Shown: positions 4,819 to 59,076 of the stretch, piece after piece
Layout of the letters: every line of letters begins with the position of its first letter
How positions within the stretch are numbered: the first letter of the stretch is position 1
Virus record (IMG/VR): IMGVR_UViG_3300032782_000002
Direction: 5' to 3' (one strand)
DNA: 64,000 bases
Source: a virus
Taxonomy: Duplodnaviria; Caudoviricetes
Made by a program: the position numbers and the translations under genes
The notes under the pieces: generated by a model
Seen by the model: the letters and a program-made list of their open reading frames with translations, nothing else
Database searches by the model: none
Told to the model about the DNA's origin: nothing

Positions 4819-7491
4819 TCACGCTTCGATCTCCTCGGCATTGGGGTCGGCGGCTTGCTTGGCCTTCATGCGCTCGTACAGACCCTTGAGCACCTGGACG
4901 GGCGTCTTGTCGCCGCCCTCCAGATCCCTCTGCAGGCCGTCGCTGCTCTTGCCGACGCTGTCCTTGAAGTCGCTCATCTTGCGGATGATGGTGTCGCGAA
5001 TCAGCTCGTCGGCCGTGCCGCGCGCGACGACGTACTGGAAGAGCGTGCGCATCTGCTGGCGGAAGCGGTGCATGCGGCCCTCCCACTGCACCAGCTTGCT
5101 CGGCACGTACGGCAGCTCGGCGCAGATGCCGATGTTGGCGTAGGTCAGGTCCAGGCCCACGCCCATCGAGTCGATGGTCGCGCAGAGCACTGTGGGCTTG
5201 GCCTCGATGATGGCGCGCCTCTTGGCGGCCCCGACTTCCCCGTGGATGACCTGCGCGTCGACGCCCTCGCCACGCAGCGCGTCCGCCAGCTGCTCGGCCA
5301 CGATCTTGCGCCACGTGCCGATGACGATCTTGCTGCCCGCCTCGGCGTGGCTGTACGCGAGCGACGCGACGTCGTTGAGCTTGCCGTCGGCCGCCATGTC
5401 GAGCGCGCGGCGCAGCGACTCGTCGTTCTGCAGCGCGACGGCCATGGAGAGCTGGAAGCGCCGCTCCACGTCGACCTCGATGATCTGCCGCGTACGCGGC
5501 GGAAGCTGCATGCCGACGTCGTCCTTGGTCCGGCGCAGCATGAAGAACGACAGGCGACGCTGTAGCTCCGGCAAGTCCGAGCTGCCCTTGGTGTTCCACA
5601 CGACGCGCTCGGCGCTGATGCGCTCTTGGAAGGCCCCCGTGTGCTTTTTGTAAAAGGCGAATGGTGCGCCGAATCGGCCTTCGCTCATCACGTTGATGGG
5701 CGCCCAGAGATCCCGCGGGCGGCTCGTCATCGGCGTCGCCGACAGCAGCATGCGGCTCTCAGCCAGCTTCGCGAGCTTCTCGGCCGCGCGCGTGCGCCGG
5801 GCCCGGTCGCCCATCAGCATGTGGGCCTCGTCGAAGATGATCGTTCTGGCACCCCACGCGAGCAGGATGTCCGTCCAGGCGTAGAGGATGTCGTAGTTGA
5901 TGATGACGATCTGGATGTCGCCGTCGGGCTTGAGCAGCTGCGCCTGCTCGTACGTGTCGCGCGCAGCCTTCGAGGGCGGCTTGACGCCGGTCGTCTCGAT
6001 GATGCGCTTGAGCTGCCCCTTGTTGTCGGCGGTAGCCTTCGCCAGTGCGATGGTGTCGAGCGCCATCTTGGTGTTGGCCAGATCCTCGGGGCTCGTCTGA
6101 ACGCCGGTCAGCACGAGCACCTTCTGCCCCGGCCATCCGGCGGGGGTCGGTGGATCGAGCTTCGCGTCACCTTCGAGCCCCGTGACCCAGACGCCCTTGA
6201 GGAATGTCGGGCACACAATGATGGTGCGCCCCCGTAGGGCGCGCGCTGCGCGAAGCGCCTGTACTGTCTTACCGCAGTTGTGGACGACGATGCCGTCGGC
6301 AACGAAGTTGCGGTGCGGATCGGCGCAGACGATGTCGTAGACATGCGTCTCGCCGTCCGGACGCACGCGGACCACACGTTCCTTGTGGGGGAAGAACACG
6401 ACCTCCCCGCCTTTGCCGCCGATGCCGCCGTGCAGATGACGGAACTTCTCTTCCTCACCGTGCAGCTGCGCGTGCACGCTCTTGGTCATCAGTTCGAGGT
6501 TCGCGAGGCGGTTGTCGTCCTTGATGCCGTTCTTGTGGTGGACGATCTCGTCATCGGTAAGGTACCGCCGGAGGTGGGCCTCCATGACGAGCCGGTGTTC
6601 GGGAACGCGCCCACCAGCCCGCGGTGGGTGATCGTGCATGCCGCTGACGAGGACGTACCCGTCCGCGTCGTAGTGGCGGCCGCCGATGGATGTCGGCTTC
6701 GTGCGCAGGTGGCGGTAGATACACGTGCGACAGTGCCCGGTGAACCGCGGTCTGGATGGATACGACGGGGTAGTAGTGACGCCCTTGGTGGATCCGCACC
6801 GACGGCATCGTGCGCGGCCGTTGGCCAGCACGTACTGGCCTGGGCGTAGGGTGTCGGCTCTCACGAAGCCGTCAGGTGTTCCGATCTCGTGATCGGGTGT
6901 GACGCGGATCGTCTTGCCCGAGTCGAGTTCGACGCGCACGACTGCTCGCACACCACGATCGACGACGTCTCGGATCGGGTGCAGGCGCAGTGTGTCCCCG
7001 CAGAGCGAACGCACGTAGGTCGGAATGGACGGGCGCCACGTCTTGCCGCCGTGGCTCTTGCCGCCGTGGAACTTGTGGTGGAGGGCCGCGAGCTTGATGA
7101 CGAAGCTCTTTGCGGCGCGGCTTACACGCACGGTGGCCTCGCCGTCAACGCAGCCGACTTCGTCGGCGAGGAACGCGCCCTCGCCCGAGTGCACGACCAG
7201 GAACTTGACGCCGTCCTTCTGGTAGTCGCGCAGATCCGTGAACGAGATGGGCGCCAGCACGTTCTTCGGGATGGCGCCGGGCGACGGCAGCCGGCTCATG
7301 TCGATGCGCAGCTTCTTGGCGGCGATGCGCCGCGCGGCCGCGTCCACCGCGTCCACGTAGCCAACCCACGCCTTGCGCTCGGCCGCCCAGTGCAGGCCCG
7401 GTGTGGCCTTGCACTCCTCGCGCACGGTGGGGCTGTAGATCGGCGTGTGGATGCCCCACTCACTGCCGCCGTAGTGTCGTACGAGGATCAT
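4819..7491 (-). CDS. SNF2-family helicase/ATPase interrupted by an intein
   Basis: Q motif LRDYQKDG; Walker A split as LADEVG|CGKT; IIFDEAH; LSATP; FMLRRTK; GVGLDLT; QWEGRMHR. Confidence 0.92.
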   Translation of the reverse strand: MILVRHYGGSEWGIHTPIYSPTVREECKATPGLHWAAERKAWVGYVDAVDAAARRIAAKKLRIDMSRLPSPGAIPKNVLAPISFTDLRDYQKDGVKFLVVHSGEGAFLADEVGCVDGEATVRVSRAAKSFVIKLAALHHKFHGGKSHGGKTWRPSIPTYVRSLCGDTLRLHPIRDVVDRGVRAVVRVELDSGKTIRVTPDHEIGTPDGFVRADTLRPGQYVLANGRARCRRCGSTKGVTTTPSYPSRPRFTGHCRTCIYRHLRTKPTSIGGRHYDADGYVLVSGMHDHPPRAGGRVPEHRLVMEAHLRRYLTDDEIVHHKNGIKDDNRLANLELMTKSVHAQLHGEEEKFRHLHGGIGGKGGEVVFFPHKERVVRVRPDGETHVYDIVCADPHRNFVADGIVVHNCGKTVQALRAARALRGRTIIVCPTFLKGVWVTGLEGDAKLDPPTPAGWPGQKVLVLTGVQTSPEDLANTKMALDTIALAKATADNKGQLKRIIETTGVKPPSKAARDTYEQAQLLKPDGDIQIVIINYDILYAWTDILLAWGARTIIFDEAHMLMGDRARRTRAAEKLAKLAESRMLLSATPMTSRPRDLWAPINVMSEGRFGAPFAFYKKHTGAFQERISAERVVWNTKGSSDLPELQRRLSFFMLRRTKDDVGMQLPPRTRQIIEVDVERRFQLSMAVALQNDESLRRALDMAADGKLNDVASLAYSHAEAGSKIVIGTWRKIVAEQLADALRGEGVDAQVIHGEVGAAKRRAIIEAKPTVLCATIDSMGVGLDLTYANIGICAELPYVPSKLVQWEGRMHRFRQQMRTLFQYVVARGTADELIRDTIIRKMSDFKDSVGKSSDGLQRDLEGGDKTPVQVLKGLYERMKAKQAADPNAEEIEA
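6277..7152 (-). mobile_element. Intein (292 aa) with an HNH homing endonuclease
   Basis: Starts CVDGEA, block B VTPDHEI, ends VYDI...FVADGIVVHN followed by +1 Cys; internal EHRLVME...VHHKNGIKDDNRLANL HNH motif. Confidence 0.93.
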
Positions 7492-41793: not shown

Positions 41794-41971
41794 CCCAAGA
41801 CCGATGCGGAATGGTTCGCCATGCGGTTCCCGTCGCCGGCCGCGCGGGCAGCAGCCGACGCCGCGATCGAGCCGCTCGATGTCGGCGCTCCGATGAGCGA
41901 GTACATCGACGTCTGGATCGCGGCGTACCGTGCGGCGGGCGGTGCGCCACCGCGCGAGAGCTGGGGCGCGC

Positions 41972-41999
41972 TTGACATCAAGTGCGCCTCGTGCACAAT
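41972..41999 (+). promoter_or_regulatory. Promoter of the HTH-cas1-cas2-array unit
   Basis: TTGACA-N16-CACAAT; 29/39 identical to the promoter at 45591. Confidence 0.7.
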
Positions 42000-42006
42000 G
42001 CGCATC

Positions 42007-42195
42007 GTGGCACGCCAGACATCGCCGAAGGCCGTGGAAGTAGATCCGCAGACGGTTGCGCGGCTGGCCGCCGAAGCCCAGGTCGATCGCCGCACGGCCA
42101 AGAAGGCCCTGACCGATGGCGTCGATGCGGTACGTGGGGAGTTCATGCGCGGGCGGCTGCGTGTCGCGGCGCAGACGCTCGGGCTCAAGTTGTAG
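42007..42195 (+). CDS. Small HTH protein (LacI-like HTH) upstream of cas1
   Basis: TVARLAAEAQVDRRTAKKAL; in-frame GTG 7 nt after the -10 box; stop 6 bp before cas1. Confidence 0.55.
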   Translation: MARQTSPKAVEVDPQTVARLAAEAQVDRRTAKKALTDGVDAVRGEFMRGRLRVAAQTLGLKL

Positions 42196-42201
42196 GGCGT
42201 C

Positions 42202-43215
42202 ATGCGCCTCACCGCGCGCGTCGTGGATGTCGCGGAGCACGGTCGGCGACTGTCGCTTGAGCAGGGCTTCCTGGTTGTCCACGACGAACGACGCGCCGAG
42301 CTTGGGCGCGTTCCGCTAGATGACGTTGGCGCGGTGCTCCTGCACGCGCAGGGCACGAGCTGTACGACACCCCTCATAGCGGCCCTGGCACACCGTGGAG
42401 CCGTGCTCGCGGTGTGTGACGGCCATCATCTACCCGTCGCGTGGACCCTGCCGGTCGGAGATCATTCGGGGCAGGCGCGCACTATCGCCGCTCAGGTGGA
42501 TGCTCCCAAGCCGTTCACCAAGCGGTTGTGGCAGTACGTTGTTCAGGCCAAGATCGCTTCGCAGGCGGACGTGTTGGCGGTGTGCGGGAAGAACCGCGCG
42601 CTGCTCGACGGTCTGGTCGGACTTGTGCGCTCTGGCGATCCGGCGAATGTCGAAGCGCGCGCCGCGCAGGCGTACTGGCCGACGTTGTTCGGGGCGGCCT
42701 TCCGGCGTGATCGCGAGGCACCGGGCATCAACGCGGCGCTCAACTACGGCTACACGGTGTTGCGCGCCTCGGTGGCGCGCGCCGTTGTCGCCTGCGGCCT
42801 GCACCCAAGTATCGGCGTCAAGCACCGTCGTGACCCGCTCGCTCTCGTGAGTGATCTGATGGAGCCGTTTCGTGCGGTGGTCGATTGTCGGGTGGCGATC
42901 ATGGCGGTGGACGGGCGCGCTGATACGAGCCGCCGCTCACGTGAGGAGCTGGTGGAGCTGCTCGGCGGTGACATCGAGGCGGGCGTGATGCGGTTCGCGC
43001 GATCGATCGGGGACGCTTACCTGACGGGTGTGTGCCCGGTGTGGAGGCGATCGGATGTGGCTGTTGGTGCTGTTCGATCTGCCGGCGACGACACGCGCGG
43101 ATCGCTGGTTAGCGTCGCGGTTCCGGAACGCCCTTCTGGCCCGCGGCTTCGAGAGGCTTCAGCTGTCGGTGTACACGCGGAGGTGCCCTGGGGCGGCGAC
43201 GACGCTGGCGGCTGA
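42202..43215 (+). CDS. cas1: CRISPR integrase Cas1, type II-like
   Basis: GRVPLDDV, GDPANVEARAAQAYW, INAALNYGYTVLRA, GLHPSIGVKH, SDLMEPFR; catalytic E/H/D present. Confidence 0.95.
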   Translation: MRLTARVVDVAEHGRRLSLEQGFLVVHDERRAELGRVPLDDVGAVLLHAQGTSCTTPLIAALAHRGAVLAVCDGHHLPVAWTLPVGDHSGQARTIAAQVDAPKPFTKRLWQYVVQAKIASQADVLAVCGKNRALLDGLVGLVRSGDPANVEARAAQAYWPTLFGAAFRRDREAPGINAALNYGYTVLRASVARAVVACGLHPSIGVKHRRDPLALVSDLMEPFRAVVDCRVAIMAVDGRADTSRRSREELVELLGGDIEAGVMRFARSIGDAYLTGVCPVWRRSDVAVGAVRSAGDDTRGSLVSVAVPERPSGPRLREASAVGVHAEVPWGGDDAGG

Positions 43216-43423: not shown

Positions 43424-45517
43424 GATGCAAGGGGATGCGATCCCCTTGTGAGTTCCAACACCGACTACCGGATGATCGTCCTGGCGACGTCGATGCAAGG
43501 GGATGCGATCCCCTTGTGAGTTCCAACGGGCGCGGCGCATGACATCCCCCGTCACTGCCGATGCAAGGGGATGCGATCCCCTTGTGAGTTCCAACACGGC
43601 CGCGCATGCGCAGAGATCGGGGCGCGCGATGCAAGGGGATGCGATCCCCTTGTGAGTTCCAACACAGGCGCGCGAAGAAGAGGGCCAGACGTCTAGGATG
43701 CAAGGGGATGCGATCCCCTTGTGAGTTCCAACACGAACATGCGGCCGGTGCGCGGATCGATCTGGGATGCAAGGGGATGCGATCCCCTTGTGAGTTCCAA
43801 CTAGCGGGCGAGGGCGGCGCGGAGCCTGCGGTGGATGCAAGGGGATGCGATCCCCTTGTGAGTTCCAACTTGATCCCGACGCATCCGATCGAGTTGACCG
43901 CGATGCAAGGGGATGCGATCCCCTTGTGAGTTCCAACTCTTTGCCGAGCGCCAGGCGCTGCATGTAGAAGATGCAAGGGGATGCGATCCCCTTGTGAGTT
44001 CCAACCCAGAGGCGCGCGCCGCTCCCGAAGTGGTCGCGGGATGCAAGGGGATGCGATCCCCTTGTGAGTTCCAACTCGCGCACCGCGTGCGTGTCCAGGT
44101 AGCTGCGATGCAAGGGGATGCGATCCCCTTGTGAGTTCCAACGCGGGGCCCGCGAAGACCGCTTGCAGGAAGAAGATGCAAGGGGATGCGATCCCCTTGT
44201 GAGTTCCAACGACTACATGACCGAGACCGCAGCCACGGTTTCGATGCAAGGGGACGCGATCCCCTTGGGAGTTTCAACCGAGGGTGGCTCCAACAGCACC
44301 ATGGGTCTCCGCTGCAAGGGGGAACGATCCCCTTGAGAGTTCCAACTGGCTGCACACAAGGCATAGGCACCGCTCGTGATCAAGGGGACTAGATCCCCCT
44401 GGGAGTTTCAACATTAGGGCCTGATAGACGTTGTGGACGGCGGCGATGCGGGGGGATTCGATCCCCCTGGGAGTTTCAACGAGTGAGACCCGAGACCAAC
44501 CCAATCCAGTAGGATGCAAGGGGGTTCGATCCCCCTGGGAGTTTCAACTGGGACGTGACGCTGACGCCGGCCGGCGGCAGATGCAAGGGGGTTCGATCCC
44601 CCTGGGAGTTTCAACCTCATGGGTGGCGATCAGGCGGGTGGGCGCGCGATGCAAGGGGGCACGATCCCCTTGGGAGTTCCAACCTCGACAAGGCGCTGCG
44701 ACGGGATAGGTGCGTGATGCAAGGGGGCTCGATCCCCTTGAGGGTTCCAACGACATGCGGGTGCCTCTCAACCACGACGATCAGTGCGAGGGGACGTGAT
44801 CCCCTTGAGGGTTCCAACTTGATGCCGCGGTCGGCCGATGCTGACACGGAGATGCGAGGGGGATGAGATCCCCTTGGGAGTTTCAACTCGGCCACGCACA
44901 GCAAGACGTCGCGGTCTTCGATGCAAGGGGATGAGATCCCCTTGGGAGTTCCGCCGTGAGGTGGCTACCGCTGCGCTCGTGAGCTTGCGGTGCAGGGGAT
45001 GAGATTCCCCTCGTGAGGTCCAACCCCATGGCCTTTTCGATCAACTCGTCGCGCACGAGATGCAAGGGGACGTGATCCCCTTGATGGTTTCAACGTGAAC
45101 CGCACAGCGGAGGGCTAGACGTACGGGATACAAGGGGGCGATCCCCTTGAGATGTTTCAACTGGTTGGCGAAGCCGACGGCGAACGCGATGCAAGGGGAT
45201 CCCCTTGAGAGTTTCAACCAGGCCGCGCAGCAGGGCCGCGCGCATCACGGATGCAAGGGGGTGTGATCCCCTCGCGAGTTCCAACTCGATCATTGTCACC
45301 GTGCGGGCGAGGACCAGGCGGATGGCAAGCAAGGGGAGTGATCCCCTTGATAGTTTCAACTTGCGGACGTACGCGCGCACCTGGTTTCAACTGGAGTGCC
45401 TCGGGCGCGTTGCCGTCGTGCTCGGACGCAAGGGGATGAGATCCCCTTGGGAGTTTCAACGGCATCGTGGCACCGAGCGGGAGGAGCAAGGGGAGCGATC
45501 CCCTTGAGAGTTTCAAC
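43424..45517 (+). CRISPR. CRISPR array: ~31 repeats plus one remnant, 36-nt repeat, spacers mostly 31-34 nt
   Basis: Repeat GATGCAAGGGGATGCGATCCCCTTGTGAGTTCCAAC; first 12 copies identical (43424-44210), later copies degenerate; 72-bp leader after cas2. Confidence 0.98.
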
Positions 45518-45590
45518 AACACGGCGTACACCCTCGTGTCGCTCACGACGACGGCGCCCGCGCGCCTCTACACCGTGGTGCGAAGCGGGC

Positions 45591-45618
45591 TTGACACTGC
45601 GCGCGCCGCGGGCATAAT
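45591..45618 (+). promoter_or_regulatory. Promoter of the Cascade-helicase operon
   Basis: TTGACA-N16-CATAAT, near-consensus in GC-rich DNA. Confidence 0.75.
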
Positions 45619-45681: not shown

Positions 45682-45858
45682 ATGACGGCCCGTCAACCGC
45701 AGGTGCGTGTGCGTAGCAAGGGCGTGCACAAGATCATCATCGAGATCGACCTCGCGCCCGTGGCGGCGCCGCGCAAGACGGCCGCGGAGCGGTCCGCCAT
45801 TGCGAAGAAGGCGGTTGCGACGCGTCGTCGTCGTGCCGCGGAGCGTGCGGCGTCGTGA
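45682..45858 (+). CDS. 58-aa basic protein heading the Cascade operon
   Basis: AGGAGG RBS at 45671; RKTAAERSAIAKKAVATRRRR; GTGA overlap with cas5. Confidence 0.65.
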   Translation: MTARQPQVRVRSKGVHKIIIEIDLAPVAAPRKTAAERSAIAKKAVATRRRRAAERAAS

Positions 45859-46625
45859 CGGCGCCCAGGGTCTTTTGCGTGCGCGCCACGGCGCCGTACG
45901 CGTGCTGGACCAACCCGGCGCTCACGGCCGAGAGGTTCTCGTACCCCGTGCCGACTCCCGTCGGGCTGGAGGGGGTGCTCAAGTCGGTGTTCTGGCGCAA
46001 GGGCCTGCGCTACCAGATCCAGTCCATCGGCATCTGCGCGCCGATCCGGCGCCACCTGCTGCGCCGCAACGAGATCGACCACACGCCCCGTGCGGATGCG
46101 AGCACGGGGTTCAACGGCGACCGGTACGCCGTGCAGCGCATGACCAGCCGTCTCAAGGACGTGGACTACCGCGTGGAGTTCGTACTCGATCTCGACGACG
46201 GCTACAGGGATCGCTCGCTGCTGATGAAGTGCGAGGCGATGCTGTCGCGCTACCTGGATCGCGGCCACTGCTTCCAGCAGCCGTTCTTCGGCTGCAGGGA
46301 GATGGTGGGCGATGTCCGGTGGGCGGAGACCTCCGATCCGACCCCGATTGCCGAGACGCGGCCGCTCGGGCGGATGATCTACGGCTACATCTGGGACAAC
46401 GCGCGCAACCGCCGTGACGTCGTGCTGGAGTACGAACCGCACCTCGATCACGGTGTGGTTCATGTCCCGCCGCGCGGCGAGGTGTTGCGTCTCAACGGGG
46501 TGGCGCGCCCCGGAGTCGCGACGCCGCACCCGCCAGCGCATCCTCGACGGCCTCGCGCTCGTCCTGGGACACGTCCTGCCGGTCGCTCGCATCTGCCCAC
46601 CAGGTCGAAAGGAACTGCGGCGTGA
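45855..46625 (+). CDS. cas5: Cas5c (Cas5d), type I-C
   Basis: ACWTNP...ERFSYPVPTP...FWRK...RRNEI, LKDVDY, GHCFQQPFFGCRE. Confidence 0.93.
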   Translation: MTAPRVFCVRATAPYACWTNPALTAERFSYPVPTPVGLEGVLKSVFWRKGLRYQIQSIGICAPIRRHLLRRNEIDHTPRADASTGFNGDRYAVQRMTSRLKDVDYRVEFVLDLDDGYRDRSLLMKCEAMLSRYLDRGHCFQQPFFGCREMVGDVRWAETSDPTPIAETRPLGRMIYGYIWDNARNRRDVVLEYEPHLDHGVVHVPPRGEVLRLNGVARPGVATPHPPAHPRRPRARPGTRPAGRSHLPTRSKGTAA

Positions 46626-48289
46626 GGCTGCTCCAGGCGCTGGCGGAGTTCGCCGACCACAACATCCCTGACCCGACGTTCGAACGGCGGCGCATCGCCT
46701 ACGTCGTCGTGGTGGCGCCGGACGGCTCGCTGGTCGAGATCGAGGAGCACGGGCAGGACGAGCAGGTGCCGCGCATCGACGGTGGCACCAACGCCGTCAA
46801 CCCCAAGTTCCTCGTCGACACGCCCCAGTACGTGTTCGGCCTCGGCGAACAGCCCGCGGATCGGCGCGCGAAGTGTCACGCGGCGTTCGCCCAGCTCATG
46901 GCGGACCTGGCGACCCAGTGTCCGGATGCGGGCTTGAAGGCTGTCGCGGCTTTCATGCGCAAGCCGGTGCCGGCGAAGGCCAAGGCGCTGTCGCTCAAGG
47001 GTACCGAGTGGATGACGTTCCGGCTGCAGGGCGACAAGAGGTTCGTGTTCGAGCGGCCGAAGGTGCGTCGCTTGTGGAACGCCCGCATCGCGGCAGCGGG
47101 CTCCGATCTCAAGGCCGTGTGCCGCGTGACAGGCCGCACCGCTCCGATCGCGATGCTGCACCCCACCATCGCGATGCCAGACAGCAAAGGCGCCAAGCTG
47201 GTCAGCTTCAACCTCGATGTGTCCCGCTTCGAAGGTCGCAAACAAGGCGCGAACTTCGAGGTGTCGCAGGACGTGGCGCGCGCGTACGGCGCGGCGCTCA
47301 AGTTCATGCTGGAGCGCAAGGAAGACGGGCAGCTCAGGTCGGCCGCCTTCTTCAAGGGCGACCTGAAGGGCAGCGCCATGGGGACCGTCGTGCCCTTCAC
47401 CAAGGACGGCCGATCCATGCAGCCGCTGCTCGACGTGCTGATGCTGCCGTTCATCAAGGACGAGCGCGAGCGGTCTGCGCGTCTGGAGCAGGCGTGGGCG
47501 ACGATGACCGCCTGGTGCGCCGACGACGAACTGCTGCACGTCGTGATCCTCAAGAGCAACCAGGCCCGCATCATGGTGCTCGACTACTTCGAGCGGCCGC
47601 TGTCGGAGATCGCGGCCAACGTGTTGCAGTTTCGCCGCGAGGTGCTCGACGAGCTTGCACGCCCCGAGTCCGAGACGCCGCGTGCCGTGACGCTCGCGTA
47701 CCTGCTCAACACCATGATGGGTCCGGACGGACGCATCACGCCGTTCGCGTTGGGGATCCTGCGCGCCATGTTGTGCGGGGATCCGTACCCCCAGCCGCTC
47801 GCCTGGATGCGCGGTGAGAGCGGTGACGTATGGCGCCGGGCTATCCGGCGCCGCAGTCAGAAGGAGCCCGTTTCCATGAGTCTCGATCCCGACAACCCCG
47901 ACCAGGCGTACCAGCGCGGACGGCTGGCCGCGATCATCAAGGAACTGCACTACGAGGTGACTCGCGGGCGCGGGCAGTTGACGCTCGTGCCGTCGATCGC
48001 GCAGGCGGCCAAGATGCCCTCGTATGGCATGCAGCTGCTGCAGCGTCGCGCGCTCCAGTTCATCGACGCGCTCGAACGGCGCAACAACCGCGCCTCCGCC
48101 GCCGCGTACTACGAGGTCGCGGGCAAGATCGGGCCGGCGCCTATCCGCCACACGCGCGCGCAGGAGGAGTCGTTCATGCGCGGCTTCGTGGATCAGGTGC
48201 AGGCGCTGCGCGAGCGCATCCGCCGCTACCAGGAGGAGAAGAACGCTGTGGACGCCGTCGAAGGCGTCGAGGCCCCCGCGGCCGAGTAG
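46622..48289 (+). CDS. cas8c: Cas8c (Csd1), type I-C large subunit
   Basis: LLQAL N-terminus, FLVDTPQYVFG, CRVTG...LHPTI, GAKLVSFN, C-terminal LDPDNPDQAYQRGRL. Confidence 0.9.
   Translation: MRLLQALAEFADHNIPDPTFERRRIAYVVVVAPDGSLVEIEEHGQDEQVPRIDGGTNAVNPKFLVDTPQYVFGLGEQPADRRAKCHAAFAQLMADLATQCPDAGLKAVAAFMRKPVPAKAKALSLKGTEWMTFRLQGDKRFVFERPKVRRLWNARIAAAGSDLKAVCRVTGRTAPIAMLHPTIAMPDSKGAKLVSFNLDVSRFEGRKQGANFEVSQDVARAYGAALKFMLERKEDGQLRSAAFFKGDLKGSAMGTVVPFTKDGRSMQPLLDVLMLPFIKDERERSARLEQAWATMTAWCADDELLHVVILKSNQARIMVLDYFERPLSEIAANVLQFRREVLDELARPESETPRAVTLAYLLNTMMGPDGRITPFALGILRAMLCGDPYPQPLAWMRGESGDVWRRAIRRRSQKEPVSMSLDPDNPDQAYQRGRLAAIIKELHYEVTRGRGQLTLVPSIAQAAKMPSYGMQLLQRRALQFIDALERRNNRASAAAYYEVAGKIGPAPIRHTRAQEESFMRGFVDQVQALRERIRRYQEEKNAVDAVEGVEAPAAE
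47876..48289 (+). CDS. cas11: Cas11 small subunit, internally translated from cas8c
   Basis: AAGGAG at 47861-47866, then in-frame ATG (MSLDPDN), the arrangement known from type I-C. Confidence 0.7.
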   Translation: MSLDPDNPDQAYQRGRLAAIIKELHYEVTRGRGQLTLVPSIAQAAKMPSYGMQLLQRRALQFIDALERRNNRASAAAYYEVAGKIGPAPIRHTRAQEESFMRGFVDQVQALRERIRRYQEEKNAVDAVEGVEAPAAE

Positions 48290-48345: not shown

Positions 48346-49347
48346 ATGCTGAAAACGAATGTGAAGCGCCGCGATCTCGTGCTGCTGTACGACGTGATGG
48401 ACGGGTCCGTGAACAACGATCCCGACACCAACGCGCCCCGCCAGGATCCCGACACCGGGATCGGCTCGGTCAGCGCCGAGTGTATCAAGCGCAAGATCCG
48501 TGACGAGGTCGCACGCGAGAAGGCGGGCGAGCCTGGTTACGAGCTGCTCGTGGCGCGCGGTGCGGTGCTCAACCGCGCCATCCGCGAGGCGTACGAGGAG
48601 GCGTCCGTCAAGATCCCGGACGCCCCGAAGAAGCCCGCGAAGGCTGCGAAGGCGGGTAAGAGCGGCAAGTCGGCGAGCGCGCCCAAGGACGACGAGGTGG
48701 CCGAGGACGAGGAGGTCGGGCAAGAGCGCGACCAGCGCGTCTCGGCCGCGGATGCTGCGCGCGGCAATAGGCGTCTCGTCGAGAAGTTCTTCGACGCGCG
48801 CTGGTTCGGCCAGGTCGTGACGGGTGTCGGTGCGGGGCGCATCACGGGTCCGGTGCAGATCCAGGAGGCGCGCTCGATCGTGCCGGTGCGCATCGACGAG
48901 GTCGCGCGTACGCGCGTGGCGACGACGAACGAGGAGCAGTCCAAGGCCCAGAAGGGGCTCAACCAGAATCGGTCGCGCAAGGCGCGGTTGTCGCATGCTC
49001 TCTACAAGCAGATGCTGCACATCTCGCCCTTCCAGGCGCTCACTACCGGGTTTTCCGAAAAGGACTTCGAGGTGCTGTTGAAGGCGCTCAAGTCGATGTT
49101 CGAGAACGATCGCTCGACTTCGCGCGGCATGGTCTCGATGCGTCAGATCGTCGTGTTCGAGCACACCGATCCGCTGGGCAGCGCGCGTGCGGTCGACCTG
49201 CTCAACAGCGTGCGCGTCGTGCCGCAGGTCGAGGCGCCGACGTGCTTCGAGCAGTACACCGTGACCATCGATCGCAGCACGCTCCCCGCGGGGGTGATCG
49301 TCACAACGGCGTGGCCGGAGGCGACGGCCTCCGCGGCGGCCGAGTAG
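48346..49347 (+). CDS. cas7: Cas7 (Csd2), type I-C backbone
   Basis: LLYDV.DG..NNDPD...PRQD..TG.G...CIKRKIRD, FFDARWFGQV, TGPVQI, TGFSE.D, MFENDRS..RG. Confidence 0.95.
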   Translation: MLKTNVKRRDLVLLYDVMDGSVNNDPDTNAPRQDPDTGIGSVSAECIKRKIRDEVAREKAGEPGYELLVARGAVLNRAIREAYEEASVKIPDAPKKPAKAAKAGKSGKSASAPKDDEVAEDEEVGQERDQRVSAADAARGNRRLVEKFFDARWFGQVVTGVGAGRITGPVQIQEARSIVPVRIDEVARTRVATTNEEQSKAQKGLNQNRSRKARLSHALYKQMLHISPFQALTTGFSEKDFEVLLKALKSMFENDRSTSRGMVSMRQIVVFEHTDPLGSARAVDLLNSVRVVPQVEAPTCFEQYTVTIDRSTLPAGVIVTTAWPEATASAAAE

Positions 49348-49413: not shown

Positions 49414-51753
49414 ATGGGTATCAAGCGGCTGCACTACTACCAGCAGCGGCTGGTCAAGCAGTTGTTGGCTGTGCCGGCGACGCAGCAAGAGATCGGGGTG
49501 GTCTACCCGCAGGGCTCGGGCAAGACGCTCATACTGTTGTGCTACGCGGCTCTCGCTCTTGGGTCGCGTGTCAGCCACGTGCTCGTTGTGTGCCCGCAGG
49601 GGCAGATCTCGGACGCGTGGCGCCGCCCAAGTGGCCTGTGGAGTGTGGGTGGTGGCCTCTGCGTGAACCTGGATGATCTCGTGGACCTCGCCGGTGAGGG
49701 GCTCACGGGCACTGTCGAGAATGTGTGCGGCTACCTGAAGTTGCCGCGCGCGGATCGCGTGTTGATCGCGCAGCACGCGACGCTCACGTGGTCGCGACCA
49801 GGCAGCGACGGTCCGGCACTGCTCGACTCTCTACCCCAAGATCTGTCCGGCTACGTGCTGGTCATCGACGAGGCGCACCGCAACCGCGCGGTGGGGCTGT
49901 CGCGGATCCGTACTGTGTGGTTGGCGCGCGGCGGTACGGTCATCGACGTGACCGCGACACCGTATCGTACCGACAGGCAGCCCGTGATGGGGCCGACCGC
50001 GCGCGTCTTCTCGCGTAGCTACGCCCTGCACGCGGTTGAGGGGTACGCGCCGAGCAACATCGAGACGGCCATCATTCCGGTGCCCGTGCCAGCGGCGGCG
50101 ACCGACGGCCTGGACAAGGATGCGTGGATCGAGCACGTCTGCGATCGGGTTGTCGCCCAGTGGTCTCAGGACGGTCGCCCGAAGGCGGTCGTGCACGTGC
50201 CCGCCATCGCGCGGGAAGACTCGGGTGAGGACAGCGGCGAGCCGTTCTTGCATGAGAAGATCGTGAATCGGCTCGGCGATCTGTTTCGCGCGCGTGGGGT
50301 CCCCGTGTTCGCGGCATTCGATCGACAGCGCTCCGATATGGTGACGGCGCAGTTCATCGAGATGCTCCGGCAGGAGCGGGATCGCGCCGCGCAGGGCTAC
50401 GCGGCGTCCAAGTACGATGTCATCCTGGCCGTGCGGCGGATGGATGAGGGGACCGACTGGCCGTTCTGCTCGGCCGTCTACTTCATCGACATGCCTGGCG
50501 CGCAGTGGATCATCGAACAGGTCTTCGGCCGCGCGACGCGCGACAAGCGCACCATCCCCGGCTACCCGGCAGCGTGGGTCGATCGAGTCCGCGTCGCATT
50601 CTTCATCGCCGACGCGGACACCGCCGTGCGCAAGCACCCGCTGTCGACGTTCATCTCGGCGTGCATGCTGGCCGATCACGGCATCTCGCAGCGCATCGCG
50701 AACCTGAGGCGGATCAAGACAAGCTTGGAGCGCGCTATCGGGCACCGTGCCGGTCGGATCGTGCGCCAGATCGCCGAGATGTGCGACGTACCCGCGGACG
50801 TCAGTGCGTTGATCGAGGGCTCGATCATCGCGACGTCTTCTCGGGATCCGGCTGTCATCGAGCGCCACCTGGCTGCGTCGGGCAAGCCGGTCGCGCCGTC
50901 CGTGCTCGCGGGGTATCTGGCACTGCGTGACGGATCGTCGGCAGAGGCGGTGGCCGGCGCGTACGTAGGTCGCCACCGCGACCGCGATCCGTACGGGCTG
51001 GCGGATCTCGACACGGCGTTGCTCGCGGCCTTCGAGGAGCCGAGCAAACAGTTCGCGCACGGTCGCGTCACGGCCGCCTATGACGAACGTACAAAGGCGA
51101 TCATCGCCTCGCTCGCCAGGTTCGACGCCCAGGAGGCTTCCGAACCGGCTGAAGTGGCGCGCAAGTACCTCCAGCTCGCGGCCACGCCGTTGGATCTCAC
51201 CGACATCCAGGTGGCCGTGCGCAAGTTTGTTGACGAGCGCCGCGTCCATCCGATGTATCGGGACGGTCCCGTGCGACCCGGTCTCATGTGGTCCGAGGTC
51301 GTGGCCGCCGTCCTTGAAGGTGCGCGTGGACTACCGCGCTACGATTCGTGGAACCACTTCTGCCGTGACGCGCTCGGGGCAGACGCGAAGGACGCGAAGG
51401 ATGCCTGGGCTGACGACTACGCGGCCGTGGTTGGGGTCGAGTACTTCGATCTGACCGATGACGCATCGGTGCGGGCGAAGATGATGCGCGCGTACCCCAA
51501 GCTCAGCTCCAAGGATGCCCCGGCTCTCTGCCGCGCGGTGCACTTGTTCGGGGCCGATCTCGTCGCGAGTCTTGGTGCGGAGGCGGCCGTGCCGCTCGGG
51601 GACAAGAAAGTCTGGAAGCAGCTACAGGGTCAGAACCGCCGCGCCATCGACAAGCTTCGGCGCGACATTCTGGCGCGCCGGGATCGCGGCGAGACGTTTC
51701 AGGCCGGCGACGTGCGGCGCGAGCTGAAGCGGCACATCGACACGGCAGGTTGA
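49414..51753 (+). CDS. SF2 DEAH helicase (ResIII/HsdR-like), CRISPR-associated, no HD domain
   Basis: LHYYQ, PQGSGKT, LVIDEAH, TATPYR, MDEGTDWP, EQVFGRATR; ~330-aa C-terminal extension; start could also be 49399. Confidence 0.88.
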   Translation: MGIKRLHYYQQRLVKQLLAVPATQQEIGVVYPQGSGKTLILLCYAALALGSRVSHVLVVCPQGQISDAWRRPSGLWSVGGGLCVNLDDLVDLAGEGLTGTVENVCGYLKLPRADRVLIAQHATLTWSRPGSDGPALLDSLPQDLSGYVLVIDEAHRNRAVGLSRIRTVWLARGGTVIDVTATPYRTDRQPVMGPTARVFSRSYALHAVEGYAPSNIETAIIPVPVPAAATDGLDKDAWIEHVCDRVVAQWSQDGRPKAVVHVPAIAREDSGEDSGEPFLHEKIVNRLGDLFRARGVPVFAAFDRQRSDMVTAQFIEMLRQERDRAAQGYAASKYDVILAVRRMDEGTDWPFCSAVYFIDMPGAQWIIEQVFGRATRDKRTIPGYPAAWVDRVRVAFFIADADTAVRKHPLSTFISACMLADHGISQRIANLRRIKTSLERAIGHRAGRIVRQIAEMCDVPADVSALIEGSIIATSSRDPAVIERHLAASGKPVAPSVLAGYLALRDGSSAEAVAGAYVGRHRDRDPYGLADLDTALLAAFEEPSKQFAHGRVTAAYDERTKAIIASLARFDAQEASEPAEVARKYLQLAATPLDLTDIQVAVRKFVDERRVHPMYRDGPVRPGLMWSEVVAAVLEGARGLPRYDSWNHFCRDALGADAKDAKDAWADDYAAVVGVEYFDLTDDASVRAKMMRAYPKLSSKDAPALCRAVHLFGADLVASLGAEAAVPLGDKKVWKQLQGQNRRAIDKLRRDILARRDRGETFQAGDVRRELKRHIDTAG

Positions 51754-51754
51754 G

Positions 51755-52444
51755 ATGGCGAGCAACTTCACTTCCGCAGAGAAGATGAACTACCGGCTGC
51801 GCAATCTGCGCTGGATGCGCGACGAGCTGGTGATGCTCTGGGGCGAGGACGGGCGCCTCAACGCGGACTACTGCGAGCTGAGCGGCGAGTCGGGAGGGCT
51901 GACAGTCGAGTTGTTCGAGGCACACGACGTGTTCGGTGCGGGGCGTGTGCTCGTCGGGGTGGATCGTGATCCCGCGTTCATCGCGGTCCATCAAGCGCGC
52001 TACCCGCGGCACACGTGGCGTGCCGGCGAGCTGTACACCGTGTTCAGCGACGCGGAGTTCGATGGGGTAGCTGTGTGGAACGTGGACGCCTCTAGTGAGG
52101 TGGGCAGCCCGCGTCTCGAAGCGGGCGTGAAGGGTCTCGCGACACGCATGCGTGTGGCACTGGAGCGCCACCGCGAGATCGGGTTCATGCTCAACTGCTG
52201 CCTCGATACGCGTCGCGGCGGCCCTGTAGGTTCCAGGGTGGTCGCTCACGCGGAGATGATCGCGGCGGCGTTCACGACGGCGCTCGGGAGGCGCCGCACC
52301 GTGGAGCCCAAGCTGCTCCTGCCGCCGGACAAGGACGTCTCGCTGCTGGATGATCCGGCCTACGAGGACTTCGAGTTCGGGTGCTTCGACGTGCACTGCA
52401 CCCGGACGCTGCGGATGATCAACCTGCGGTTGGCACTGGTGTGA
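51755..52444 (+). CDS. Hypothetical protein, possible SAM-dependent methyltransferase fold
   Basis: Starts 1 bp after the helicase stop; YCELSGESGG, LVGVDRD and VWNVD resemble Rossmann MTase strands. Confidence 0.4.
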   Translation: MASNFTSAEKMNYRLRNLRWMRDELVMLWGEDGRLNADYCELSGESGGLTVELFEAHDVFGAGRVLVGVDRDPAFIAVHQARYPRHTWRAGELYTVFSDAEFDGVAVWNVDASSEVGSPRLEAGVKGLATRMRVALERHREIGFMLNCCLDTRRGGPVGSRVVAHAEMIAAAFTTALGRRRTVEPKLLLPPDKDVSLLDDPAYEDFEFGCFDVHCTRTLRMINLRLALV

Positions 52445-55359: not shown

Positions 55360-56334
55360 TCAGCATGCGTCGCATGCGGCTGTGTGGCGGTCCCGTAGCT
55401 CGCGGGCTGCGCGCCGTCGCTGATCTCGATTGACTCCCGGCACACGGTTGGCGAGCGCCGGTGATGGGCTCTCGGTGAGGGCCCGCTCGACGGGCCAGCC
55501 GCGTCGCAGTCGTTCCACAACAGTTTTCACGTTGAGTCCAAGGTGACGTGCCCAGGCACACACGGTGCGTGTCTCGCCGCGGAACGTGATTGTGTTGTGC
55601 CGTGGCGGCATGGTGACGGCCCGCTCGGCATCCCAGCCGGCGACGAGACGCCGCTGGATTAGCGCCGCGCGCACGCCCAGGCGCTCCGCAAGCTCAGCAA
55701 TAGTGAGCCTCTCGCCGCGGAACTCGACGGTGTGGTTGGTGCGTTTGTTACGTGCTTGCTGGACGAGCGTCGCCCATCGCACATTGCCGGGTGCGTAGTC
55801 CCCATCGCGATTCGGCCACCGATCGAGGGTGTGCGCCATAGACGGGCGCGGTCCTACGGCCAATAGGAACCGCTCGAATCCGCCGCGCCCGCGCCACGCC
55901 GACGCGACTTGCACACCACGGCCACCGTAGGATGTGTAGGCTGTCACATTCGGATTGGTGCATCGTTGGATCATGCTCTTCCACACTGTGTACTCCGGGC
56001 TTTGGCCGGTGCGGCGACTGTGCCCGTGGCGCAAGGGACCGACGGGTGCCGCGCCGCCGGAGCTGAGGTTGAGGCCACGCGGAGTGCGGCAATCGAGATG
56101 TGCTATCCACCAGATCTCTGTCGCGGCTGCCAGTGCGCGGTCATCGACGCGCTCAAGCTCCTCGTGGGTGAAGGTGTGCTTGCCGTGGCGTCGAATCGCG
56201 ACGCCGAGTAGCCCGCCGACGCCTCGCGTGGCGGCGAAAACATGGTCGCGCCAGCGCTGCGACAGCGACTGGGATGTGAGACCCACGTACGCCTCGCCGG
56301 TAGGTACGCACGTGATGCGGTAGACGGTAAACAC
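55360..56334 (-). CDS. Homing endonuclease-like protein: GIY-YIG plus HNH-type domain
   Basis: TVYRIT...AYVGLT...RWRDH; YGGRGV...TLDR...DYAPGNVRWAT...QARN; C-terminal HTH-like repeats. Confidence 0.8.
   Translation of the reverse strand: MFTVYRITCVPTGEAYVGLTSQSLSQRWRDHVFAATRGVGGLLGVAIRRHGKHTFTHEELERVDDRALAAATEIWWIAHLDCRTPRGLNLSSGGAAPVGPLRHGHSRRTGQSPEYTVWKSMIQRCTNPNVTAYTSYGGRGVQVASAWRGRGGFERFLLAVGPRPSMAHTLDRWPNRDGDYAPGNVRWATLVQQARNKRTNHTVEFRGERLTIAELAERLGVRAALIQRRLVAGWDAERAVTMPPRHNTITFRGETRTVCAWARHLGLNVKTVVERLRRGWPVERALTESPSPALANRVPGVNRDQRRRAARELRDRHTAACDAC

Positions 56335-56821: not shown

Positions 56822-59076
<2,255 letters not shown>

What the first reader, a model, noticed from the sequence alone, without database searches (positions are those of the whole stretch)
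49414..51753. ResIII/HsdR-like DEAH helicase occupies the Cas3 slot but has no nuclease
Seen: the Q-motif and Walker A start within the first ~40 aa, leaving no room for an N-terminal HD domain, and no HD or PD-(D/E)xK motif is evident later. The motif style (TATPYR, MDEGTDWP, EQVFGRATR) is restriction-type SF2 rather than Cas3 (QRAGR). The C-terminal ~330 aa are unexplained and include LDLTDI...HP...GPV.PGLMWSEV.AAV..GARGLP, which resembles a helicase-associated helical module from memory. Inference: a Cascade-recruited translocase giving non-nucleolytic interference, analogous to CasDinG in type IV-A. That would allow silencing of relatives or host genes without cutting DNA.
Basis: partly seen in the sequence, partly recalled or inferred. 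Interest (0 to 1): 0.85.

Follow-up and report, generated by a model that had tools for sequence, protein, structure and literature searches.

The report
Phage Cascade with helicase-methyltransferase partner
A giant-phage-like genome carries a CRISPR targeting complex that lacks the usual DNA-shredding enzyme Cas3; a nuclease-free motor protein and a tightly coupled methyltransferase-shaped protein sit beside it instead, a layout noted in 2020 but never tested, which probably acts on targets without cutting them.

Summary
Window 49414-51753 encodes a 779-aa SF2 helicase (ResIII, intact ATPase motifs) directly after cas5c-cas8c-cas7c. It has no N-terminal HD domain, and I found no nuclease domain or conserved nuclease residues.

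Five of the eight nearest relatives with usable context lie in Cas3-less type I-C loci. In all, seven lineages (38-70% GC) show four different gene orders. Cas5, Cas7, Cas8c, helicase and partner diverge in parallel.

It has a class I SAM-methyltransferase fold and is the helicase's constant partner.

The wider helicase+partner family mostly stands alone, in other huge phages and in Planctomycetota chromosomes, there often among toxin-antitoxin genes. So this looks like a pre-existing two-gene conflict module captured by Cascade.

Binding to Cascade, non-nucleolytic interference and methyltransferase activity remain untested.

Al-Shayeb et al. 2020 reported a huge-phage "type I-C variant with a helicase instead of Cas3". 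This scan has also met the system on other DNA. This window is therefore a new member of a known kind, unusual in having cas1 next to the array.

The parts
42202..43215 (+). cas1 (337 aa), immediately upstream of the array on its leader side
   Evidence: Pfam Cas_Cas1 PF01867, E 1.3e-27; precomputed gene call.
43424..45520 (+). CRISPR array. It has 12 near-identical 36-nt repeats (43424-44211), then about 18 increasingly degenerate repeats. Each repeat has a hairpin plus a ...GAGTTCCAAC 3' handle, as in type I-C.
   Evidence: TRF, sequence read, repeat and spacer extraction.
45591..45618 (+). Promoter-like site (TTGACA-16-CATAAT, 11 of 12) ahead of the cas5-to-p229 gene string. No + strand terminator-like site lies between it and 52444.
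   Evidence: Consensus scan; the operon reading is inference.
45855..46625 (+). cas5c (256 aa)
   Evidence: TIGR01876, 101 bits; PF09704.
46622..48289 (+). cas8c/csd1 (555 aa)
   Evidence: PF09709, E 6.6e-67; PADLOC Cas8c, E 1e-65. About 24% identical to canonical Cas8c and 31-42% to those of sister loci.
48346..49347 (+). cas7c/csd2 (333 aa)
   Evidence: TIGR02589, 193.5 bits; PF05107, E 4e-60.
49414..50748 (+). Helicase motor core, residues 1-445. Two RecA-like domains with Q motif, Walker A, DEAH, TATPYR, EGTDWP and QVFGRATR.
50749..51753 (+). Helicase C-terminal region, residues 446-779, all helical. Residues 446-590 are modelled with low confidence. Residues 590-779 are moderately confident and hold the only conserved C-terminal element (P613, P622, W, A632, R638-G).
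   Evidence: AF2 model; six-sequence alignment; no family or fold match.
51755..52444 (+). p229, a 229-aa class I SAM-methyltransferase-fold protein. Its start is 1 nt after the helicase stop (TGA-G-ATG).

Best explanation
The 779-aa protein is an ATPase-competent SF2 helicase or translocase with no nuclease of its own. With the translationally coupled 229-aa methyltransferase-fold protein it forms a two-gene module. A Cas3-less type I-C Cascade (Cas5c-Cas8c-Cas7c plus array) has captured that module as its effector.

Proposed mechanism:
1. crRNA-loaded Cascade finds a protospacer in a rival phage or other mobile element and opens an R-loop. This is inferred from what type I-C Cascades do.
2. 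The helicase is loaded at the R-loop. This is inferred from gene linkage only.
3. ATP-driven translocation or unwinding blocks or strips polymerases and so interferes with transcription or replication without the system cutting DNA. This is inferred from the absence of a nuclease.
4. p229 acts as an adaptor or regulator of the motor, or modifies a nucleic acid at the target. This is open.

Shown here: the domain content, the lack of a detectable nuclease, the conserved helicase-p229 pairing, and the recurrent linkage to Cas3-less I-C loci. The other steps are inference.
For: Motor intact: all SF2 ATPase motifs are invariant across 108 relatives and the core is modelled with confidence.

No nuclease found:
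- No HD, PD-(D/E)xK or HNH family matches.
- Walker A starts at residue 32.
- The C-terminal 334 residues are helical, and their only invariant residues are P, P, A, R and G.

Linkage to Cas3-less type I-C loci:
- L110: cas5-8-7-HEL-p229-array.
- L112/L113: the same order.
- L004: the same order, with the array after p229 and a repeat ending ATTGAAAT.
- L120 plus L001, two contigs of one assembly: cas5-8-7-leader-array, then array-HEL-p229, sharing the same repeat.
- L003 and L091: HEL-cas5-8-7.
- These loci share only cas5, cas8, cas7, HEL and p229.

Parallel divergence, as identity to the window in the order L120/L001, L110, L112:
- Cas5: 56, 48, 48%.
- Cas7: 59, 48, 43%.
- Cas8c: 42, 35, 31%.
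- Helicase: 43, 29, 32%.
- p229: 49, 27, 29%.

Tree: window, L001 and L110 form a starred clade made up only of CRISPR-linked rows.

Cas3:
- A bona fide phage I-C Cas3 (L115) finds nothing in the window or in the sister loci.
- The 196-kb record holding L004 has no cas3_core hit.
- Conversely, the one related phage that does have Cas3 keeps its I-C genes 16 kb from HEL-p229.

Operon layout: RBS, 1-nt coupling and a single promoter-like site.
Against: - Most of the helicase-p229 family is not next to cas genes. This covers 28 Planctomycetota rows and several other huge-phage clades, and three near relatives: L111, L122 (IS-disrupted) and L123. The module therefore has a cas-independent job, and co-location in accessory islands is possible.
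- Only 64 kb of a roughly 221-kb contig is visible, so a Cas3 or another nuclease elsewhere, or a host nuclease acting in trans, cannot be excluded.
- Residues 446-590 are modelled poorly, so an unrecognised catalytic fold is not excluded.
- No experiment exists, and no paper I found tests this system.
Confidence: 0.55

Rival explanations
1. Unwinding motor with a nuclease supplied in trans. The helicase plays the Cas3' role: it is loaded at the R-loop and reels or unwinds DNA. A separate nuclease then destroys the target, for example a host Cas3''/HD protein, RecBCD, or another phage nuclease such as one of the many HNH or GIY-YIG genes in the window. The outcome is nucleolytic.
For: Split Cas3'/Cas3'' systems are established in some type I subtypes. 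The window is rich in HNH and GIY-YIG endonuclease genes. Only part of the genome is visible.
Against: No nuclease gene is shared among the seven CRISPR-linked loci. The helicase is not a Cas3' homolog. The endonucleases seen look like homing enzymes.
Confidence: 0.2
2. Neighbours only. Helicase-p229 is an independent conflict or defence module (or a DNA-metabolism pair) of huge phages and Planctomycetota. It merely tends to sit in the same accessory island as a degenerate, Cas3-less Cascade, which acts by binding alone or uses host Cas3.
For: The family is mostly cas-free. In Planctomycetota it lies among PemK, PIN and AAA_21 genes. In the 528-kb phage (L035/G010) it lies 16 kb from a Cas3-bearing I-C locus.
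Against: Seven lineages from 38% to 70% GC keep the five genes and the array together through four different gene orders. In L004, L110 and L112 the pair is sandwiched between cas7 and the array. All five proteins diverge in parallel.
Confidence: 0.12
3. RNA-guided modification. Cascade serves as the specificity subunit of a nuclease-free, restriction-modification-like machine. The motor translocates from the R-loop and p229 methylates DNA or RNA near the target.
For: p229 has a confident class I methyltransferase fold with an E-L-x-G motif I, an acidic or amide residue after strand 2, and an invariant D111 at the motif IV position. The helicase's top Foldseek match is the type ISP enzyme LlaBIII, a motor-methyltransferase fusion. 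One apparent helicase-p229 fusion exists (L053).
Against: No DNA-methyltransferase family matches. The second glycine of motif I and the ribose-binding acid are lost in several relatives. The aromatic residue after D111 is absent in the window protein. No target-recognition domain is present.
Confidence: 0.1
4. The helicase serves adaptation or array maintenance, for example primed spacer capture with the neighbouring Cas1, rather than interference.
For: The window has cas1 beside the array. Cas3 helicases feed primed adaptation in canonical type I systems.
Against: The sister loci with the same helicase show no cas1 in the flanks read.
Confidence: 0.03

Closest known systems
[quoted passage not shown] 2020, Nature 578:425, PMC7162821, Extended Data Fig. 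[quoted passage not shown]
   Same: A huge-phage setting; I-C-like Cas5, Cas8 and Cas7; no Cas6; no Cas3; an unidentified helicase beside the Cascade genes; no functional data.
   Different: The published pair of phages is said to lack Cas1 and Cas2, whereas this window has cas1 next to the array. I could not confirm that the published helicase belongs to the same family: tblastn against GenBank phages gave no match and a motif search of the stored supplements found nothing. The main text and Extended Data Fig. 9 legend that I read do not mention the methyltransferase-fold partner.
Type IV-A CRISPR-Cas with CasDinG
   Same: A Cascade-like complex on a mobile element paired with a nuclease-free SF2 helicase. 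The published outcome is non-nucleolytic repression (PMC11519345; 10.1101/2023.06.23.546257).
Canonical type I-C CRISPR-Cas (Cas3-Cas5c-Cas8c-Cas7c-Cas4-Cas1-Cas2)
   Same: Cas5c, Cas8c and Cas7c families; repeat with a hairpin and an 11-12-nt 3' handle; no Cas6.
   Different: No Cas3 and no Cas4. Cas8c is only about 24% identical to canonical Cas8c. The helicase follows cas7, and cas1 lies on the other side of the array.
Type I and type ISP restriction-modification motors (HsdR of EcoR124I, LlaBIII)
   Same: ResIII-type SF2 motor; the top Foldseek match is LlaBIII; paired with a methyltransferase-fold protein.
   Different: No PD-(D/E)xK nuclease domain and no HsdS or target-recognition module. 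p229 matches no DNA-methyltransferase family.

Membership tests
Cas3 (type I effector) | N-terminal or separate HD nuclease domain | tested here: not met
   Walker A starts at residue 32. No HD family hit. No conserved H or D set in the C-terminus. The HD part of a real phage Cas3 (L115) finds nothing in the window or sister loci.
Cas3 (type I effector) | Cas3-type helicase core and Cas3 C-terminal domain (TIGR01587, PF22590) | tested here: not met
   No NCBIfam, Pfam or PADLOC Cas3 model hits the window protein. A true Cas3 in a related phage does hit them. The fold comparison is generic SF2 and so uninformative.
CasDinG (type IV-A) | XPD/DinG-type SF2 helicase matching the type IV DinG models | tested here: not met
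   PADLOC typeIV_DinG does not hit the window protein. By fold, DinG 6fws is tied with dozens of other SF2 enzymes, which is inconclusive.
ResIII / SF2 helicase superfamily | Two RecA-like domains with Q, I, Ia, II (DEAH), III, V and VI motifs | tested here: met
HsdR (type I restriction subunit) | N-terminal PD-(D/E)xK endonuclease domain before the motor | tested here: not met
   The motor starts at residue 1 and no nuclease domain was found.
Type I-C CRISPR-Cas | Cas8c, Cas5c and Cas7c signature genes, no Cas6, I-C-type repeat | tested here: met
Type I-C CRISPR-Cas | Cas3 present in the locus | tested here: not met
   None found in the 64-kb window. The rest of the roughly 221-kb contig could not be read.
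[quoted passage not shown] | Huge phage, I-C-like Cascade genes, no Cas3, adjacent non-Cas3 helicase | tested here: met
   The contig is 220,885 bp with phage genes. Locus content.
[quoted passage not shown] | Same helicase family as the published one; no Cas1 or Cas2 | tested here: inconclusive
The window does carry cas1, unlike the published description.
Class I SAM-dependent methyltransferase (for p229) | Rossmann-like seven-strand fold with a SAM-binding motif I | tested here: met

The most novel reading that the evidence does not exclude
Cascade acts as the RNA-guided specificity subunit of a nuclease-free, restriction-modification-like machine. The captured helicase translocates from the R-loop, and the coupled methyltransferase-fold protein chemically marks DNA or RNA at or near the target. 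This would give programmable, non-destructive marking or silencing of rival phages or host genes.
Probability: 0.1. Interest if true: 0.9.

Novelty: new member of a known kind. Interest (0 to 1): 0.55.

Why it matters
How Cas3-less type I systems on phages interfere with their targets is an open question. Only type IV-A, with the unrelated CasDinG helicase, has been worked out.

This locus and its six sister lineages give a defined five-gene set that can be reconstituted: Cas5c, Cas8c, Cas7c, the helicase and p229.

The stand-alone helicase-p229 pairs in Planctomycetota and other huge phages offer a natural comparison for what Cascade adds. If the motor silences without cutting, or if p229 modifies the target, it would be a second, independently evolved route to non-nucleolytic CRISPR interference and a possible compact programmable tool.

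If the pair is only a neighbour, the finding reduces to a Cas3-less Cascade of a kind already described.

Tried and rejected
- Complex prediction of Cas8c (555 aa) with the helicase core (residues 1-445) gave no verdict. It says nothing either way.
- I first read the closest relative (P0002, L001/L002) as lacking cas genes. That was wrong. Its 'upstream genes' are spurious ORFs across a 32-repeat CRISPR array, and the cas5-8-7 genes lie on another contig of the same assembly that ends in the same array.
- DNA and protein searches of the GenBank phage collection found nothing.
- No whole genome is held for the window, so the rest of the contig could not be searched.
- PADLOC found no known defence system for the helicase or p229. 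There were only P-loop-level PbeA hits.
- phmmer against PDB sequences gave nothing useful.
- The ESM Atlas gave no usable match for the helicase C-terminus: no hit by features, and all TM-scores by structure were under 0.5.
'No known fold' is therefore not claimed, only 'none found'.
- Three leader-proximal window spacers and the repeat's 3' half had no exact match in IMG/VR.
- A search of the Al-Shayeb supplements for the EG[TLSM]DWP motif found nothing. The files are truncated in storage.
- The alignment-based locus scan failed with the 40-sequence alignment and worked with a 12-sequence core alignment.
- Literature searches found no paper describing a Cascade-helicase-methyltransferase system.
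Full report
**1. What is there**

The window is a 68% GC stretch of a contig of about 221 kb. It carries phage-type genes:
- several HNH and GIY-YIG homing endonucleases;
- a phrog_62 helicase;
- a phage ATPase.

On the + strand the locus reads as follows.

| Feature | Coordinates | Evidence |
|---|---|---|
| cas1 | 42202-43215 | |
| CRISPR array, 12 intact then about 18 decaying 36-nt repeats | 43424 to ~45520 | |
| Promoter-like site | 45591-45618 | |
| 58-aa ORF | 45682-45858 | |
| cas5c | 45855-46625 | |
| cas8c | 46622-48289 | |
| cas7c | 48346-49347 | |
| Helicase | 49414-51753 | |
| 229-aa gene (p229) | 51755-52444 | |

The helicase start at ATG 49414 has a GAGGGA ribosome-binding site. 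It matches the 779-aa product in the public collection. The p229 ATG lies 1 nt after the helicase stop.

**2. The helicase itself**

- Pfam calls ResIII above threshold, plus Helicase_C. NCBIfam calls nothing, so none of its Cas3 models match.
- A HMMER search of 1.84 billion representatives found 426 relatives.
- In an alignment of 108 relatives, the invariant columns are exactly the SF2 ATPase motifs: G36, K37, D152, E153, A181, Q369, G372, R373 and R376. The motor should therefore be active.
- The AlphaFold model has mean pLDDT 79. The two RecA-like domains (residues 1-440) are confident. Residues 445-590 are a poorly modelled helical stretch. Residues 590-779 are a moderately confident helical domain.
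- Foldseek ranks the type ISP enzyme LlaBIII, XPB/Ssl2, Lhr, RecQ, Hef and HsdR first.
- Cas3 is not among the top 50 matches of either list.
- Six CRISPR-linked relatives share only P613, P622, A632, R638 and G713 after the core. No histidine, aspartate, glutamate or lysine constellation is conserved, and nothing suggests an HD, PD-(D/E)xK or HNH site.
Its description of the helicase as restriction-type rather than Cas3-type is fair.

**3. The partner**

- p229 has no family hit.
- It folds with pLDDT 92.5 into a class I SAM-methyltransferase fold.
- The listed Foldseek matches are SAM methyltransferases.
- Thirty-nine homologs keep K10, R14, an E-L-x-G motif I, G68 followed by D or N, W88, G91, an invariant D111 at the motif IV position, N147 and Y214.
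- The fold is certain. Activity is not.

**4. Context of relatives: the key result**

I fetched 124 loci in total:
- by pattern scans of viral, metagenome and genome collections;
- by exact look-ups of the top HMMER hits.

Iterated profile searches over their six-frame ORFs gave three results:
- p229 lies beside the helicase on the same strand, usually just downstream, in about 45 loci.
- One apparent fusion exists (L053).
- No other neighbour is conserved in more than 8 loci.

Helicase plus p229 is therefore the conserved unit.

Cas genes or arrays are attached in seven lineages:

| Lineage | Gene order |
|---|---|
| Window | cas1-array-cas5-8-7-HEL-p229 |
| L120 + L001 (two contigs of one assembly, same repeat) | cas5-8-7-leader-array ... 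array-HEL-p229 |
| L110 | cas5-8-7-HEL-p229-array (about 30 repeats) |
| L112/L113 | cas5-8-7-HEL-p229-array |
| L004 | cas5-8-7-HEL-p229-array, repeat ending ATTGAAAT |
| L003 | HEL-cas5-8-7 |
| L091 | HEL-cas5-8-7 |

Further points on these lineages:
- They span 38-70% GC.
- They share only those five genes.
- Among the eight nearest relatives with usable context, five are CRISPR-linked. Three are not: L111, the IS-disrupted L122, and L123.
- In a tree of 53 helicase cores, window, L001 and L110 form a starred all-CRISPR clade, and L003 with L091 form another.
- Both clades, along with L004, branch at the base of a well-supported group. Its other 28 rows are cas-free Planctomycetota copies.
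- Identity to the window falls in the same order for Cas5, Cas7, Cas8c, the helicase and p229. That is what co-inheritance as one unit predicts.

**5. Cas3**

- A real phage I-C Cas3 has HD motifs, a DEAD domain and the Cas3 C-terminal domain (L115). It finds nothing in the window or in the sister loci.
- The 196-kb record holding L004 has no cas3_core match.
- The one related huge phage that does carry Cas3 (L013/L035, a 528-kb contig) keeps cas3-cas8-cas7-array 16 kb away from its helicase-p229 pair.
- So adjacency goes with absence of Cas3. The same case shows that the pair exists independently of CRISPR.

**6. The stand-alone module**

In Planctomycetota chromosomes the pair is often multi-copy. 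PemK/MazF, PIN or AAA_21 (AbiEii-like) genes are frequently inserted between or beside the two genes. That is the look of a conflict or defence island.

The stand-alone helicases are longer (about 1000-1260 aa, against 737-914 aa in most CRISPR-linked ones). They carry extra copies of the C-terminal G..P...W element. This would fit Cascade having replaced a built-in targeting part. That last point is inference.

**7. What the arrays target**

I found no target for the window spacers.

In the sister phage, one spacer is identical over 36 nt to a D5_N/DUF5906 primase-like gene. A run-level assembly joined that gene to the array at exactly that point (L002). This fits targeting of replication genes of mobile elements.

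**8. Mechanism**

The best-supported reading is that Cascade recruits the helicase-p229 pair at the R-loop, and that the system acts without a nuclease of its own (confidence 0.55).

- The linkage part is strong. I put it at about 0.8 that the pair is a functional component of the CRISPR locus.
- The non-nucleolytic part rests only on failing to find a nuclease.
- The rivals are a nuclease supplied in trans (0.2), mere neighbourhood (0.12), guide-directed methylation (0.1) and a role in adaptation (0.03).

**9. Relation to what is known**

- Al-Shayeb et al. [quoted passage not shown] - I found no functional study and no mention of the methyltransferase-fold partner.
- I could not confirm that the published helicase belongs to this family.
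- Earlier notes of this scan describe the same helicase-methyltransferase layout on at least four other genomes.
- This window is therefore a new member of a known but uncharacterised kind. Its own peculiarity is cas1 beside the array.
- It is not a Cas3, a CasDinG or an HsdR, because each fails a defining feature.
- It may work like type IV-A.

Noticed in passing
window 42202-43215 (and 41821-42195): cas1 sits on the leader side of the array, unlike the published Cas1/Cas2-less description of the variant. The 124-aa ORF just upstream has no Pfam hit.
   Followed up: partly
window 44243-45520: The array's distal two thirds consist of progressively degenerate repeats, including shortened ones. 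L110 and L112 show the same decay, so long decaying arrays seem typical of this system.
   Followed up: partly
L002 901-936 versus L001 2310-2346: A spacer of the sister phage's array is identical over 36 nt to the end of a D5_N/DUF5906 primase-like gene. A run-level contig joins that gene to the last three repeats at exactly that point. This is either an assembly join through spacer and protospacer, or a real recombination product.
   Followed up: partly
L013/L035/L115 (528-kb phage contig Ga0222640_1000001): This huge phage has a Cas3-bearing I-C locus (Cas3 792 aa, cas8, cas7, 15-repeat array) 16 kb upstream of its helicase-p229 pair. It may be an evolutionary intermediate, or a sign of a shared accessory island.
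   Followed up: partly
L017, L089, L100 and other Planctomycetota loci: PemK/MazF toxins, PIN-domain proteins and AAA_21 (AbiEii-like) ATPases are repeatedly inserted between or beside the stand-alone helicase and p229 genes. Several genomes carry two copies of the pair. Many copies in long-read MAGs look frameshifted.
   Followed up: partly
L006-L008 17771-19060: A different 36-nt repeat array (GTCTCAATACCTGC...GGCAAC) lies 5 kb downstream of a helicase-p229 pair, in phage records without any Cas7. No effector was identified. The large ORF between them is an NAD-dependent DNA ligase.
   Followed up: partly
window 4819-7491 (-): An 890-aa phage helicase (phrog_62) carries an HNH endonuclease segment at residues ~250-350, which looks like an inserted homing element.
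   Followed up: no
window 55360-56334 (-) and 56887-59076 (+): A GIY-YIG plus HNH-type homing endonuclease gene, followed by a 729-aa protein with long Gly-X-Y collagen-like repeats and glycine-rich tracts. The latter is probably a fibre.
   Followed up: no
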